Assembly (NCBI GenBank): GCA_965178125.1
Contig: OZ237744.1
Coordinates: forward strand, 868,001-932,000
DNA: 64,000 bases
Reading direction: 5' to 3'
From: Bilabrum cf. latius
Taxonomy: Eukaryota
Shown here: positions 35,590 to 50,538 of the stretch, piece after piece
How the letters are laid out: each line of letters opens with the position of its first letter
Numbering within the stretch: the stretch's first letter is position 1
Translations under genes and position numbers: made by a program
The notes under the pieces: model-generated
Databases searched by the model: none
What the model saw: only the letters and a program-made list of their open reading frames with translations
Told to the model about the DNA's origin: nothing

Positions 35590-38232
35590 TCAACTAGTCC
35601 CGTCCCCAGCATCGGCCCGGGAACCGGGCCTGGCCCCAATGCCCCAGAGCGACGGTGACGGGGTCACTGGAGCATCAGACCCGCTGCCACTCGCGGCACT
35701 TGTGCCAGAGTTTCCGGCCTCTCCTTGTCCCGATACAACGGAACCACCTGGATAAGTCCCTCCACTGAACAAGCTACCGTGCAACTGCGGCACATAAGTC
35801 ACTACGCTGATCGAGTCCGCTGTCGCTGGAATAGAGGCAGGCAAGTCGGGATCCCTGCCCTCATCACACCCAGAGCCAGCCTCCGATCCGCGCACCCCGT
35901 TGGAAATAGCAACCCCTGTTTCCACATCGGCATTTGCGTCACGGACAGTAGATGGCCTAGATGGGGAAGCACCGCTGGCACCGAAGGGCAGTGCAGCGGA
36001 TCGCCCAACACCCATAGCTTCGGCATCTGACAGCGACTCTGCCCGCCTTCGCGGAGACTGTCCATCACCGTAAAAAACGCTTCCGTCCCTACTTCCAGCG
36101 CCAGCGAATGTTCCTGTATGTCCACAATGCTCTGCGACCGGCAACAGACCAACAGACCTAAGCGGCGATGCACGCTTGGAGGAAGCAGATGCAGACCGAG
36201 TCATACGGTGCAAGACACCAGGCGCCCGCTAGACATCTAGCACCGCGCCATCAGTAATGCATGCCCCAGTCTAAACTACAGCACCATCCAGTCCTCCGTC
36301 TACACCCACAAGGCCCGCACACGCTCGTGACAACACATCCCCATCCCACTTCAACGGATGCCCCGCGCGGCTGCGGTCACGCTGATCACGCAGCAACGAC
36401 CACACTGACGGACCGCGACGCACAAACAGACTGCGCGCATCCTTGCCAGACCCAAACCCACGACCGGCTCCCTCGTACATACCATGCAGCGCGTCCACAT
36501 GCGCCTGTGCCTCCGACTCGCTCAAACCGTGCAGATTGTCGCCCGCCTGCAACCGAGGACCTGCAGACCCACACACACTCTCGCCTGCAGACCCTGCCGC
36601 CGCGGTAGCCGCAGAAGCACCAGCACCAGCACCAGCACCGGCACCGGCAGACACTCCCAACTCTCCCGAAGCCGCGCCCGATGCAGCGTCTGCCCCGCTC
36701 CCCCACGCATCCACGCTCCCGCCCGACTGCTGCACATCTCCAAATGCAGAGCCAGAGACAGATCCTGATGCCGATGCCGATGCCGATGCCAAGGCCGCCC
36801 CAGACTCACCCTCCTCGTCTGCGCCATGCACGTCGCCGCCGCCCCCGCTGCCGTCCTCCTCGGGTGACTCCACAGCATCGCCATCGACATCGACATCGCC
36901 CCACCCTGCCGCAGCGGCTGCCGCGCCCCAACCGCCATCGTCATTTCCATCAGTCGCACCGCCGTCGCCAGGCCCTGCACCCCCGAAGCCCCCCGCTGAT
37001 CCCGACCCTGACTCAGAGCCCCAGCCACCCTCACCCTCACCCGCACCGACCAACTACGACTCGCCCGATGATCCAGGCCCAAACGCATCCTCGCCAGATC
37101 CGCCCCAACCACCATCCTGCTCCGCCGTCTCCCCGCCCCATGCAGAATCAGATCCTGATGCTGCCTACGGCTCCGGCTCCGGCTCCGGCTCCGGTGATGG
37201 CTCCGCCGCTGGGGCTGCAGAGGCAGATGGCTCAGACACACACGGCGCTTCCGATGTCACAGCTACCGACACGCCCGACACACCCACAAGGCCCGCGCAC
37301 GCTCGTGACAACACATCCCCATCCCACTTCAACGGATGCCCCGCGCGGCTGCGGTCGCGCTGATCACGCAGCAACGACCACACTGACGGACCGCGACGCA
37401 CAAACAGACTGCGCGCATCCTTGCCAGACCCAAACCCACGACCGGCTCCCTCGTACATACCATGCAGCGCGTCCACATGCGCCTGTGCCTCCGACTCGCT
37501 CAGACCGTGCAGATTGTCGCCCGCCTGCAACCGAGGACCTGCAGACCCACACACACTCTCGCCTGCAGACCCTGCCGCCGCGGTAGCCGCAGAAGCACCA
37601 GCACCAGCACCAGCACCAGCACCAGCACCAGCACCAGCACCAGCACCAGCACCAGCACCAGCACCAGCACCAGCACCAGCACCAGCACCGGCAGACACTC
37701 CCGACTCTCCCGAAGCCGCGCCCGATGCAGCGTCTGCCCCGCTCCCCCACGCATCCACGCTCCCGCCCGACGGCTGCACATCTCCAAATGCAGAGCCAGA
37801 GACAGATCCTGATACCGATGCCGATGCCGATGCCAAGGCCGCCCCAGACTCACCCTCCTCGTCTGCGCCATGCACGTCGCCGCCGCCCCCGCTGCCGTCC
37901 TCCTCGGGTGACTCCACAGCATCGCCATCGACATCGACATCGCCCCACCCTGCCGCAGCGGCTGCCGCGCCCCAACCGCCATCGTCATTTCCATCAGTCG
38001 CACCGCCGTCGCCAGGCCCTGCACCCCCGAAGCCCCCCGCATCGCCGAACGCAGCCCCCGCTGATCCCGACCCTGACTCAGAGCCCCAGCCACCCTCACC
38101 CTCACCCTCACCGACCAACTACGACTCGCCCGATGATCCAGGCCCAAACGCATCCTCGCCAGATCCGCCCCAACCACCATCCTGCTCCGCCGTCTCCCCG
38201 CCCCATGCAGAATCAGATCCTGATGCTGCCTA

Positions 38233-38265
<33 letters not shown>

Positions 38266-49500: not shown

Positions 49501-50538
49501 CTGAACTTCACCTGGAGCTAGAGATTCAAGTGACACAAGCGGTAGAGGAGGCCGAGACCGGCGCGATCCGGCTTGACTTCGACTTGGAGCTGTCTCTTGA
49601 CCGGCTCCGCGGTGAGCCGTGCATGCTACCGGGGCTTGGTCCGATTTGGCGACACGATTCAACTTGTTCTAGCGATGTTTGTCGCAGTGCCGAAATAAAG
49701 CTCTACTAATGAGTTCGTCCGGGGCGCACTGCACGAGCTGTTCGCTTTGCTTTGGACCCAGCCCACCAGTGGAGCCAATCTGCAGTTCGCTGATGGATAC
49801 TAGGGCATCTCCACCTCGCAAAACATGACCGAACGCGACAGAACGGCCCTGCAATTCCCTATTCGGCTTCAGAGATACAATAAAGGAGCTCCTGTTATCA
49901 TGTGGCCCAGACTGGGCCATAAACACGGTTCCTGAATGTGCTGTTGAAACTGCGTGGTTCTCATCATCGAACGACGAGCGCCATACTGCTCCTAAACGCC
50001 CTGGACCCCGGGAATCATTTACTGCGCACTCTCCACCGCGGCCAGCTAGGCCATGGACATCCCCAGCTGCAACATACTCGCCTGGCATAGCAGCATACAC
50101 TCCGCTGCCCTGCTGAACGTACGACCTGCGACGCGATTCAAACCCTTTGCCCTTGCAAGATCCGTAACCAAGACCAAGGTTTACAAAATTTTCGGCTGAT
50201 ATTGGACATACGTCGCTACGGAGGACCAGTCGCACCGGCAAACAAGCAACAAGTCCCGGGCCAACTGCGACACCCAACACAAGGTCCACTATATCCACAA
50301 CAGGTAGCCGAATCACTCTCCCTGGGGGAACAACAGCAGTAAATTCATCGCGTGATTCACTGCCGCTCTTCAATACTTCCATTGCTAACGCTGCTCCATT
50401 GAGCTTGCCCCCGGGTTCAAACGAATCTGAAGGCTGACCTCGCTTGTCTGTCTGCGATGGTCGCCCTGCATGTCTGGCAGCAGAAGAAGCCACAGTCCTG
50501 CTTCCTGTTGACGCAATACCTTTGATCCTCCGAGGCAT
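35590..50538 (-). CDS. Giant (~4982 aa) protein: N-terminal degenerate cyclophilin domain followed by 12 tandem ~320-390 aa Gly/Ala/Ser/acidic WG-rich repeats
   Basis: All minus-strand pieces from 49669..50538 down to 35590..36213 share one frame and are separated only by TAG. Cyclophilin motifs: CPISAENF, FDDEN, GTVFMAQSGPHDNRSSF, VAFGHV and HAG*L. Ends in TGA. Confidence 0.8.
36301..49057. repeat. Coding tandem array: 12 full units of 966-1173 bp plus a partial 13th, with nested (GCACCA)n, (GGCTCC)n, (GATGCC)n and (CCCTCA)n hexamer repeats
   Basis: Near-identical units. Periods between equivalent positions: 978, 1071, 1095, 1173, 1017, 981, 1047, 1023, 1047, 966, 1050 and 1065 bp, all multiples of 3. 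Confidence 0.98.

What the first reader, a model, noticed from the sequence alone, without database searches (positions are those of the whole stretch)
35590..50538. Hidden ~5,000-aa single-exon protein: a pseudo-cyclophilin fused to a 12.7-kb tandem array
Seen: what looks like a satellite is one 14,949-nt frame once TAG is read. It runs cyclophilin domain, linker, 12 large repeats, then a unique C-terminus. Every unit length is a multiple of 3, which suggests selection on the frame (though the nested hexamer repeats would also preserve it). The cyclophilin has lost its catalytic residues: FHRIIPGFMCQGG reads VYAAMPGEYVAAG (Arg55 and Gln63 equivalents gone) and WLDGKH reads ELQGRS (Trp121 and His126 equivalents gone). 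Inference: a non-catalytic anchoring domain on a huge disordered scaffold. I do not recognise this architecture.
Basis: partly seen in the sequence, partly recalled or inferred. Interest (0 to 1): 0.8.

Follow-up and report, generated by a model that had tools for sequence, protein, structure and literature searches.

The report
Giant repeat gene hidden by TAG
In a microbe that reads the stop codon TAG as an amino acid, an apparent 13-kb satellite is really one gene for a roughly 5,000-residue protein made of an inactive cyclophilin-like head and thirteen copies of a new small domain separated by acidic, tryptophan-studded spacers; what the protein does is not known.

Summary
Window 35590-50538 (minus strand) is one 14,949-nt frame with 31 TAG, no TAA and a single terminal TGA.

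TAG is a sense codon across the whole window. Thirteen long ORFs open only when TAG is read. The 12 complete ones end in TGA (8) or TAA (4).

The frame is coding rather than a satellite:
- Each of four sub-regions lacks TAA/TGA against 4.7-7.4 expected from shuffles.
- It has the best codon score of the six frames in every sub-region.
- The head matches Pfam cyclophilin, E 7.7e-15.

The array is more structured than "disordered scaffold". It holds 13 copies of an 82-residue module, identical in protein. All 7 nucleotide variants in module codons 1-81 are synonymous. The modules alternate with 12 acidic Gly/Ala/Ser spacers carrying Trp-Gly and Phe-Gly motifs. The module recurs at 57-75% identity in fragments from other assemblies, and matches no Pfam family or solved fold.

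Function is inferred only; my best guess is a multivalent intracellular scaffold. No RNA or peptide evidence was obtained. Moderately interesting: a new variant of a known kind.

The parts
35590..50538 (-). Whole ORF: 4,982 sense codons plus TGA, with 31 in-frame TAG read as sense
   Evidence: Best codon score of the six frames, +0.229 against -0.073 to -0.515 for the others.
49771..50235 (-). Cyclophilin-like domain (residues 102-256, Pfam envelope) with the PPIase pocket residues replaced and two insertions
   Evidence: PF00160 E 7.7e-15. PDB best hit is PPIE at E 4.6e-11. Full-length alignments to PPIE and PPIF.
49669..49671 (-). First in-frame TAG (codon 290), directly after the cyclophilin-like part. 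Database fragments P0001 and P0002 end here.
49057..49671 (-). Unique Ser/Pro/Ala-rich linker, residues 290-494, holding 4 TAG and no Pfam match
   Evidence: 0 TAA/TGA against 4.7 expected, shuffle fraction 0.001. Weakly best codon score, +0.014. Pfam gives nothing at E up to 10.
36301..49056 (-). Tandem array, residues 495-4746: 13 modules alternating with 12 spacers
47746..47991 (-). Example of the 82-residue module (copy 2, GDNLHG...AGLVGVS). The other copies lie at 48811-49056, 46696-46941, 45730-45975, 44683-44928, 43660-43905, 42613-42858, 41632-41877, 40615-40860, 39442-39687, 38347-38592, 37276-37521 and 36301-36543.
   Evidence: tblastn finds 13 of 13 copies 100% identical in protein. 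7 of 7 variants in codons 1-81 are synonymous. Relatives are P0003 (61%, E 7e-26), P0005 (57%) and P0004 (75% over 44 aa). The AlphaFold2 model has four helices at pLDDT 56.
46942..47745 (-). Example of a spacer (unit 2, 268 residues): Gly 28%, Ala 23%, Ser 14%, net charge -38, 6 Trp-Gly and 3 Phe-Gly motifs, (Glu-Pro)n and (Gly-Ala)n tracts, 2 TAG
   Evidence: Variants among spacers are 11 synonymous and 19 non-synonymous.
42031..42033 (-). Copy-specific TGG to TAG change in unit 7 (codon 2836). It is the only one of the 72 spacer Trp positions not kept.
35593..36300 (-). Unique Gly/Ser/Ala-rich C-terminus, residues 4747-4982, holding 2 TAG and no Pfam match
   Evidence: 0 TAA/TGA against 5.0 expected, shuffle fraction 0.0035. 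Codon score +0.129, the best of six frames. No Pfam match.
36261..49169 (+). Antisense ORF (4,302 codons, 13 TAG) confined to the array and judged not coding. It is the Pro/Ala/Ser-rich mirror of the sense frame.
   Evidence: Codon score -0.204. It stops at the array's edges. 0-5 of the 10 module variants are synonymous in the plus-strand frames, against 8 of 10 in the sense frame.

Best explanation
This is a real, intron-free nuclear gene of a eukaryote-like organism (kinesin, CDK-type kinase) in which TAG is a sense codon and TAA and TGA are the stops. The product has about 4,982 residues.

Layout:
- a short basic N-terminus
- a cyclophilin-like domain that cannot be a conventional PPIase
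- a 205-residue linker
- 13 copies of a previously undescribed 82-residue, probably helical module
- 12 polyanionic Gly/Ala/Ser spacers between the modules, each with about ten aromatic-Gly motifs (6 Trp-Gly, 3-4 Phe-Gly)
- a 236-residue tail

Shown:
- The frame is coding.
- The module's amino-acid sequence is under purifying selection, and the module is conserved in fragments from other assemblies.
- The spacers keep frame, charge and aromatic-Gly motifs, but otherwise drift.
- The array is homogenised, which fits unequal crossing-over or gene conversion plus microsatellite slippage.

Inferred:
- The protein is an intracellular multivalent scaffold.
- The folded modules and the Trp/Phe-Gly 'stickers' in acidic 'spacers' give two kinds of repeated binding site.
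- The dead cyclophilin-like head is a protein-binding or anchoring end rather than an enzyme.
For: TAG is sense across the window:
- 13 long ORFs (305-4,983 codons) open only if TAG is read. They hold 2-31 TAG each.
- The 12 complete ORFs have 0 internal TAA or TGA and end in TGA (8) or TAA (4).
- With those ORFs the window is 90.6% coding, and gaps between genes are 21-1,210 nt. A 14-kb non-coding array would be the exception.
- TAG lies inside a Pfam-matched domain of a neighbouring gene: Metallophos match at residues 20-249, TAG at residues 49 and 202.

This frame is coding:
- No TAA/TGA in any of four sub-regions, against 4.7-7.4 expected.
- The same frame runs from the unique head through the array into the unique tail.
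- It has the best codon score of six frames in all 6 sub-regions tested.
- TAG density is 31 in 4,982 codons (0.6%), within the range of the neighbours (0.3-2.0%).

Selection on the module:
- 13 of 13 copies are identical in protein.
- 10 variant DNA sites exist among the copies. Three lie in codon 82, where copy 13 leaves the repeat. The other 7 are all synonymous. The expected synonymous share is 0.25 for all changes and 0.35 for transitions.

Conservation elsewhere:
- P0003 at 61% identity, E 7e-26; P0005 at 57%; P0004 at 75% over 44 residues. There are 24 invariant columns among the 4 sequences.
- P0004 and P0005 carry acidic Gly-rich sequence before the module, and P0003 and P0005 after it.
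- P0003 and P0005 differ at a few positions, so the other assembly holds at least two copies or alleles.

Head: PF00160 match, and an alignment that shows the replaced pocket residues.

Stickers: all 9 aromatic residues of the unit-2 spacer are followed by Gly, where Gly is 28% of the spacer. 71 of 72 spacer Trp positions are kept. Net charge per spacer is -38 to -42.

The array is real:
- Contigs of 4 runs from 4 studies show the array's start, its internal junction and its distal junction exactly as in the window.
- In run X1, word depth is 66-90 on repeat pieces against 7.7 on the unique flank. The tool warns that depth is not a copy number.
Against: - No transcript or peptide evidence. No listed run is on record as RNA, and all runs laid were contigs.
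- Function is entirely inferred. The module, linker and tail match no Pfam family.
- The module also matches no PDB sequence, no solved fold at E <= 0.001 and no Atlas cluster.
- The module model is of low confidence (pLDDT 56). The single-sequence model of the head failed (pLDDT 29).
- Spacer variants are 11 synonymous to 19 non-synonymous, near the neutral expectation. Most of the protein's length shows no residue-level constraint.
- Third-position GC of the gene (0.56) is lower than in the kinesin gene (0.77). This may mean weak codon bias or low expression.
- The units are 98.7-99.7% identical. The present array is therefore young or constantly homogenised, and its copy number may vary.
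- The amino acid carried by TAG was not determined. No TAG fell in an aligned conserved column.
- Relatives were seen only as protein fragments. No DNA of theirs was available, so it is not shown that head and array are linked there.
Confidence: 0.6

Rival explanations
1. The product is translated, but the array is largely a selectively neutral runaway expansion. One module-plus-spacer unit was amplified by unequal crossing-over. Only the head and perhaps one module matter, and copy number and spacers have no specific role.
For: - Units are 98.7-99.7% identical.
- (Gly-Ala)n tracts vary from 11 to 40 dipeptides between units.
- Spacer variants are 11 synonymous to 19 non-synonymous.
- A neighbouring gene (51741-59663) also carries a long simple repeat, so such expansions seem tolerated in this genome.
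Against: - 7 of 7 module variants are synonymous.
- 71 of 72 spacer Trp positions are kept.
- The module with acidic flanks recurs at 57-75% identity in other assemblies, with at least two distinct copies there. The module-plus-acidic-flank design is therefore older than the present homogenised array.
Confidence: 0.2
2. The spacers are an Argonaute-binding (GW/WG 'Ago-hook') or related Trp-pocket platform. The protein would tether many Argonaute or CCR4-NOT-type partners at once.
For: - There are 71 Trp-Gly motifs in Gly/Ser/Asp/Glu/Ala-rich, acidic, probably disordered spacers. Within a unit they are spaced 9 to about 64 residues apart.
- GW/WG repeats mediate Argonaute binding (PMC2965232, start of abstract seen).
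Against: - This rests on composition only.
- No Argonaute gene could be looked for, because no genome is held.
- Phe-Gly motifs and long (Gly-Ala)n tracts are not features of known Ago hooks (recalled).
- No binding test was run.
Confidence: 0.1
3. TAG at codon 290 terminates, wholly or mostly. The product is a 289-residue cyclophilin-like protein, and the array is an untranslated satellite downstream.
For: - The first TAG sits exactly at the end of the cyclophilin-like part.
- Both database fragments, P0001 and P0002, end there.
- In the kinase ORF a TAG lies two codons before the TGA. That would fit occasional use of TAG near gene ends.
Against: - P0001 and P0002 were presumably called under the standard code, so their ends say nothing.
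- The downstream frame lacks TAA/TGA in linker, unit and tail, with shuffle fractions 0.001-0.0035 each.
- That frame has the best codon score.
- Module variants are all synonymous.
- The module is conserved as protein elsewhere.
- All 12 complete ORFs of the window need TAG read through.
Confidence: 0.05
4. It is a secreted or extracellular structural protein, either silk-like through (Gly-Ala)n or an acidic matrix or biomineral protein.
For: (Gly-Ala)11-40 tracts and strongly acidic Gly/Ser/Asp/Glu-rich repeats resemble silk and acidic matrix proteins (recalled).
Against: - The N-terminus is basic and polar with no hydrophobic signal-like stretch.
- Of the 25 hydrophobic 19-residue windows found, the 10 printed lie at residues 74-102, next to or inside the cyclophilin match (102-256). 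The other 15 were not examined.
- Cyclophilin-head proteins with long tails are intracellular in known cases (recalled).
Confidence: 0.05

Closest known systems
NKTR and PPIG (SR-cyclophilin): an N-terminal cyclophilin domain followed by a long low-complexity tail (architecture recalled; their cyclophilin domains are PDB hits 2he9_A and 2wfi_A)
   Same: The cyclophilin-type domain sits at the N-terminus of a long, charged, probably disordered polypeptide.
   Different: Their domains keep the PPIase pocket and their tails are basic Arg/Ser-rich (recalled). Here the pocket residues are replaced. The tail is acidic and is built from 13 folded modules plus spacers. The protein is 3-6 times longer.
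RanBP2/Nup358 (cyclophilin domain hit 4i9y_A, E 1.1e-7; architecture recalled)
   Same: A giant protein that combines a cyclophilin-type domain with Phe-Gly motifs in disordered stretches.
   Different: In RanBP2 the cyclophilin domain is C-terminal, and it comes with Ran-binding domains and zinc fingers (recalled). None of these was found here by Pfam. The spacers here are strongly acidic and carry Trp-Gly as well.
PPIL6, 'probable inactive peptidyl-prolyl cis-trans isomerase-like 6' (depositors' name; PDB 8j07_S and 9fqr_HZ)
   Same: A cyclophilin-fold domain regarded as non-catalytic and used as a structural part.
   Different: It is a weaker match (E 3e-7) than PPIE (6.9e-11) or PPIF (3.1e-10), so there is no sign of orthology. 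PPIL6 is about 310 residues long and has no repeat array.
GW/WG 'Ago-hook' platforms (GW182/TNRC6, NRPE1, SPT5L; PMC2965232 start of abstract; the rest recalled)
   Same: Many Trp-Gly motifs in Gly/Ser/Asp/Glu-rich disordered tandem repeats that evolve fast in sequence but keep their composition.
   Different: No Argonaute link was tested. Phe-Gly motifs, (Gly-Ala)n tracts and an interleaved folded module are extra features. There is no homology.
Nuclear codes with only UAG reassigned: the rhizarian exLh (Leu) and Iotanema spirale (Gln) (PMC5304391, passages read), and phyllopharyngean ciliates (PMC11687900, listing and start of abstract)
   Same: UAG is sense while UAA and UGA terminate, as seen in this window.
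   Different: The organism behind the window is not known to me, and the amino acid was not determined. UGA is the commoner stop here (8 of 12), whereas UAA dominates in both published protists. A 64-kb, GC-rich (54-68%), multi-gene stretch does not look like gene-sized ciliate chromosomes (recalled).

Membership tests
Cyclophilin-type PPIase / cyclophilin-like domain (Pfam PF00160) | Sequence match to the family profile above the curated cut-off | tested here: met
   55.9 bits against a cut-off of 21.7, E 7.7e-15, profile positions 12-144 of 159. 128 PDB cyclophilin sequences match at E <= 0.001.
Cyclophilin-type PPIase / cyclophilin-like domain (Pfam PF00160) | Conserved pocket residues of active PPIases (human CypA numbering, recalled: R55, F60, M61, Q63, N102, Q111, F113, W121, L122, H126) | tested here: not met
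   Read from the alignment to PPIE and PPIF: R to A, F to E, M to Y, Q to A, N to Q, Q to S, F to I, W to E, H to S. Only the Leu is kept. So this is the cyclophilin fold family, not a conventional enzyme.
Cyclophilin-type PPIase / cyclophilin-like domain (Pfam PF00160) | Eight-stranded beta-barrel fold | tested here: inconclusive
   The single-sequence AlphaFold2 model failed (pLDDT 29.2). Two insertions, of 9 and 13 residues, appear in the alignment.
Cyclophilin-type PPIase / cyclophilin-like domain (Pfam PF00160) | Prolyl isomerase activity and cyclosporin binding | not testable with these tools
   Needs an enzyme assay on the recombinant domain.
GW/WG Argonaute-binding platform | Multiple Trp-Gly or Gly-Trp motifs in a disordered region rich in Gly, Ser, Asp and Glu | tested here: met
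   71 Trp-Gly motifs in the 12 spacers. Spacer composition is Gly 28%, Ala 23%, Ser 14%, Glu 8%, Asp 7%.
GW/WG Argonaute-binding platform | Binding to the Trp pockets of an Argonaute PIWI domain, and an Argonaute present in the genome | not testable with these tools
   No whole genome is held. No Argonaute lies in the window (Pfam on the long ORFs).
FG nucleoporins | Phe-Gly repeats in a disordered region, plus a nuclear-pore anchoring domain | tested here: inconclusive
   There are 3-4 Phe-Gly motifs per unit, but no nucleoporin domain by Pfam. A net charge of -38 to -42 per spacer is atypical (recalled).
Nuclear genetic code with only UAG reassigned | In-frame TAG in many genes, while TAA and TGA alone end genes | tested here: met
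   13 of 13 long ORFs hold 2-31 in-frame TAG. 12 of 12 complete ORFs end in TGA (8) or TAA (4) and have no internal TAA or TGA.
Nuclear genetic code with only UAG reassigned | A cognate tRNA with anticodon CUA, an altered eRF1, and the identity of the amino acid | tested here: inconclusive
   No tRNA in the window and no Rfam match. No TAG fell in a conserved aligned column. Gln is the most enriched common neighbour of TAG (22 cases, 1.76 times expectation; Phe is 1.96 times on 8 cases), which is only a hint.

The most novel reading that the evidence does not exclude
The protein is a polyvalent aromatic-Gly docking platform: about 71 Trp-Gly and about 45 Phe-Gly motifs on a chain with net charge -465. 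It is organised by 13 copies of a new helical domain and anchored by a dead cyclophilin. It would work like an Ago-hook or FG-type hub, concentrating Argonaute-, deadenylase- or karyopherin-like partners. It sits in an organism whose UAG-only code may itself be undescribed. That code has kept this gene, and other giant genes beside it, out of protein databases.
Probability: 0.12. Interest if true: 0.75.

Novelty: new variant of a known kind. Interest (0 to 1): 0.5.

Why it matters
- It is a clear case of a large gene that standard-code annotation cannot see. Of this gene, my searches of the 5.8-billion-cluster protein collection returned only a head piece cut at the first TAG (P0001). They returned no long form, though the 'longer' search is weak evidence. 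Other assemblies gave fragments of 71-274 residues (P0002-P0005).
- It adds a conserved 82-residue domain with no family assignment.
- It adds another example of a cyclophilin fold kept after loss of its catalytic pocket.
- It offers a natural 'sticker and spacer' polymer, with aromatic-Gly motifs in a polyanion, whose repeat number can be varied experimentally.
- The window as a whole shows a UAG-only reassignment in GC-rich, gene-dense nuclear DNA. If the lineage is not one of the few already described, that is the more important finding.

Tried and rejected
**Expression**
- The run search listed no holder on record as RNA.
- The four runs laid were all contigs.
- Run X7, guessed by the tool to be RNA, covers 49506-50524 and repeat pieces but not 49110-49473 or anything beyond 50566. 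I draw nothing from these holes.

**Relatives' DNA**
- The four runs are nearly identical to the window in the unique part, so they gave no divergence for a dN/dS test.
- Two metagenome scans, one with the head plus linker and one with the module alignment, found no relative.

**Longer forms and genome**
- A search for longer proteins holding the module found none. The tool calls that weak evidence.
- No whole genome is held.

**Structure and family**
- The single-sequence model of the head was useless (pLDDT 29).
- Foldseek with the module model gave no match at E <= 0.001, best E 2.6.
- A profile search of PDB sequences gave best E 0.13.
- The protein atlas gave no usable hit.
- Pfam at E up to 10 gave nothing for module, linker, tail or P0005.

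**Meaning of TAG**
- Alignments of the kinase, kinesin and aldose epimerase to solved structures put no TAG in an aligned conserved column.
- TAG contexts and the neighbouring repeat gene were not decisive. Gln was used only as a placeholder.

**Rejected readings**
- The antisense ORF 36261-49169: worse codon score, confined to the array.
- A prokaryotic or phage origin: the window holds kinesin, a CDK-type kinase and a TFIID-like gene.

**Literature**
- Searches listed no paper, by title or start of abstract, on a cyclophilin joined to GW repeats or to a giant tandem array.
- Searches listed UAG-only codes only in the lineages named under Closest known systems.
- No supplement was opened. No complex prediction was run, because I claim no specific binding pair.
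Full report
**What is there**

The minus strand of 35590-50538 translates as one frame of 14,949 nt. It has 32 stops by the standard code: 31 TAG, and the terminal TGA at 35590-35592. There is no TAA and no internal TGA. The other five frames of the same stretch hold 14 to 147 TAA+TGA.

**Is TAG really read?**

With TAG read as sense, the whole 64-kb window resolves into long ORFs. 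I followed 13 of them, of 305 to 4,983 codons. They hold 2 to 31 in-frame TAG each. The 12 that are complete have no internal TAA or TGA. They end in TGA (8) or TAA (4), and never need TAG as a terminator.

Pfam recognises the following:
- a kinesin motor (E 4.4e-75)
- a CDK-type kinase (E 2.3e-50)
- an aldose 1-epimerase
- a metallophosphoesterase
- a FAM184-like coiled coil
- a weak TFIID-18kDa-like match, below Pfam's curated cut-off

This is eukaryote-type nuclear DNA, seemingly without introns in these genes. In the metallophosphoesterase, TAG lies inside the Pfam-matched stretch: match at 20-249, TAG at residues 49 and 202.

With these ORFs the window is 90.6% coding, and gaps between genes are 21-1,210 nt. 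A 14-kb non-coding satellite would be out of character.

Only UAG is reassigned here. Codes of that type are in print for a rhizarian from a plant bug (Leu) and for Iotanema spirale (Gln) (PMC5304391, passages read). They are also in print for phyllopharyngean ciliates (PMC11687900, listing and start of abstract only).

I could not name the organism. I also could not determine the amino acid. No TAG fell in a conserved aligned column of the kinase, kinesin or epimerase. No tRNA or Rfam family is in the window. Gln is used below only as a placeholder.

**Is this particular frame coding?**

Four sub-regions are independent of one another, because the repeat counts once. I shuffled each 2,000 times, keeping dinucleotides. 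All four have 0 TAA/TGA:

| Sub-region | Expected TAA/TGA | Fraction of shuffles with 0 |
|---|---|---|
| Cyclophilin part | 7.4 | 0.0005 |
| Linker | 4.7 | 0.001 |
| One unit | 6.5 | 0.001 |
| C-terminus | 5.0 | 0.0035 |

I also built a codon log-odds score from eight other ORFs of the window. It is highest in this frame, and positive, in all six sub-regions tested. For the whole ORF it is +0.229, against -0.073 to -0.515 for the other frames.

An antisense ORF (36261-49169, 4,302 codons, 13 TAG) also opens when TAG is read. It is confined to the array and scores -0.204. It is the Pro/Ala/Ser-rich mirror image of the sense frame. I reject it.

**The head**

Residues 102-256 match PF00160 at 55.9 bits, against a cut-off of 21.7. 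The best solved relatives are PPIE (E 4.6e-11) and PPIF.

The full-length HMMER alignments put VYAAMPGEYVAAGD opposite FHRIIPQFMCQGGD of PPIE. They put MAQSGPHDNRSSFI...RELQGRS opposite MANSGPNTNGSQFF...DWLDGKH. There are two insertions, of 9 and 13 residues.

In human cyclophilin A numbering (recalled), the changes are R55A, F60E, M61Y, Q63A, N102Q, Q111S, F113I, W121E and H126S. Only L122 is kept. It belongs to the fold family but fails the test for a conventional PPIase.

A single-sequence AlphaFold2 model was useless (pLDDT 29).

The head has two close database relatives:
- P0001 is 95% identical. It is the same sequence with a frame-shifted N-terminus.
- P0002 is 89% identical, from another assembly.

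Both stop at the position of the first TAG. This is what a standard-code gene caller would produce.

**The array**

There are 12 full units of 322-391 codons, followed by a 13th copy of only the first 81-82 residues. DNA identity between units is 98.7-99.7%. All 15 gap classes between units are multiples of 3. One is 21 nt.

Each unit has two very different halves.

The first 82 residues (GDNLHG...AGLVGVS) form the module:
- They have mixed composition, a net charge of +1 and 11% Arg.
- All 13 copies are identical in protein.
- Among the 13 copies there are 10 variant DNA sites. Three lie in codon 82, where copy 13 leaves the repeat. The other 7 are all synonymous in this frame, two of them at first codon positions (CTG/TTG, CGA/AGA).
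- The chance share of synonymous changes is 0.25-0.35. In the other five frames only 0-5 of the 10 are synonymous.

An exhaustive HMMER search of 1.84 billion representatives found exactly two relatives: P0003 (61% identity, E 7e-26) and P0004 (75% over 44 residues). A word-indexed profile search added P0005 at 57%.

In those fragments the module starts and ends at the same boundaries. P0004 and P0005 carry acidic Gly-rich sequence before it, and P0003 and P0005 after it. P0003 and P0005 differ at a few positions, so there are at least two copies or alleles in that other assembly.

The module matches no Pfam family. It has no PDB sequence match (best E 0.13) and no solved fold at E <= 0.001. 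A four-sequence AlphaFold2 model gives four helices at low confidence (pLDDT 56). I regard it as a real, selected, undescribed small domain.

The remaining 240-309 residues of each unit form the spacer:
- Composition is Gly 28%, Ala 23%, Ser 14%, Glu 8% and Asp 7%, with almost no basic residues.
- Net charge is -38 to -42 per spacer and -465 for the whole protein.
- Spacers contain (Glu-Pro)n and (Gly-Ala)11-40 tracts.
- Each has 6 Trp and 3-4 Phe. All 9 aromatic residues of the unit-2 spacer are followed by Gly.
- 71 of 72 spacer Trp positions are kept. The exception is a TGG-to-TAG change in unit 7.
- Variants among spacers are 11 synonymous to 19 non-synonymous. That is close to neutral: composition and motifs, not residues, seem to matter.

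**Is the array an assembly artefact?**

Contigs from four runs of four studies were laid on 48200-50900. All match the window with almost no differences in the unique part.

All four show a loose end at 48815 whose sequence is the window's distal array junction at 36272-36301. They also show a loose end at 49058, which is the internal module-to-spacer junction present 12 times in the window.

In run X1 a 7.5-kb contig bridges from the first unit into the upstream flank. Its word depth is 7.7, against 66-90 on the repeat pieces. That is about 9-12 fold, though the tool warns that depth is not a copy number. The runs may all be one strain, so this is corroboration of structure, not independent biology.

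**How it probably works**

Shown: the product is a chain of about 5,000 residues with a non-catalytic cyclophilin fold at one end. It has 13 identical small domains held about 260 residues apart by polyanionic, flexible, aromatic-Gly-studded spacers.

Inferred (about 40% for this step): it is an intracellular multivalent scaffold. The modules give one kind of repeated binding site. The Trp/Phe-Gly motifs give a second, in the manner of Ago-hook GW repeats or FG repeats. The head docks the whole chain to a partner.

There is no signal-like hydrophobic N-terminus. That argues against a secreted silk-like or matrix protein.

The main rival is that the array is translated but is mostly a neutral, recently homogenised expansion. 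The reading that TAG at codon 290 terminates gets 5%.

**Comparison with what is known**

Cyclophilin heads on long low-complexity tails exist (NKTR, PPIG). So does a giant FG protein with a cyclophilin domain (RanBP2), and so do inactive cyclophilin folds (PPIL6). The cyclophilin domains of these proteins appear among the PDB hits. Their architectures are recalled.

None of them combines a dead head with an acidic tandem array and an interleaved folded module. The literature searches listed no such protein by title or start of abstract.

I therefore file this as a new variant of a known kind. It is moderately interesting in itself. The genome-wide UAG-only code is the potentially larger point, if the lineage is undescribed.

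**Limits**

- There is no RNA or peptide evidence.
- No DNA of relatives was available.
- The organism is not identified.
- The meaning of TAG is not determined.
- Both structure models are of low confidence.
- No supplementary files were consulted.

Noticed in passing
whole window, 1-64000: TAG is a sense codon throughout. 13 long ORFs open only when it is read. The 12 complete ones end in TGA (8) or TAA (4), and TAA never occurs in frame. The window is 90.6% coding, GC 54-68%, with no introns needed in the kinesin, kinase or epimerase genes. The amino acid is undetermined. Gln is the most enriched common neighbour of TAG (1.76 times expectation).
   Followed up: partly
window 51741-59663 (-): The neighbouring ORF has 2,640 codons and 18 TAG. 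Its first roughly 1,060 residues are a Lys/Pro-rich tandem repeat (KPSKPEKPGKPASPGG and variants). A coiled-coil-like C-terminal half follows, and there is no Pfam match. Giant repeat proteins seem common in this genome.
   Followed up: partly
window 15469-22053 (-) and 24948-31604 (+): Two further ORFs, of 2,194 and 2,218 codons with 19 and 22 TAG, have no Pfam match at E <= 0.01.
   Followed up: no
window 36261-49169 (+): An antisense ORF of 4,302 codons also opens across the array when TAG is read. It would encode a Pro/Ala/Ser-rich polymer. It was judged a by-product of the sense frame's composition.
   Followed up: yes
window about 50410-50420 (codons 40-43 of the ORF): Database fragment P0001 is identical to the head from PGGKLNG onward. 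Upstream of that it follows another reading frame of the window, so that assembly differs by an indel there. The four runs laid show no indel at this place. P0002 supports the window's frame.
   Followed up: partly
window 60043-60045 (-), kinase ORF 60037-61959: A TAG lies two codons before the terminal TGA of the CDK-type kinase ORF. It is probably chance, but it would be worth a look if TAG had any residual terminator role near gene ends.
   Followed up: no
window 22279-24477 (-): A kinesin-14-like gene (best PDB hits KIFC1, Kar3, Ncd) has its motor domain interrupted by long Ser/Ala/Gly-rich insertions. Pfam and PDB matches come in separate stretches.
   Followed up: no
window 48200-49109, runs X5 and X7: In run X5 the summed word depth on repeat pieces (169-219 per contig) is about 15-29 times that of the unique flank (7.5-11.4). 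That is higher than in X1 (about 9-12 times). It could mean a different copy number, or merely summed contigs.
   Followed up: no
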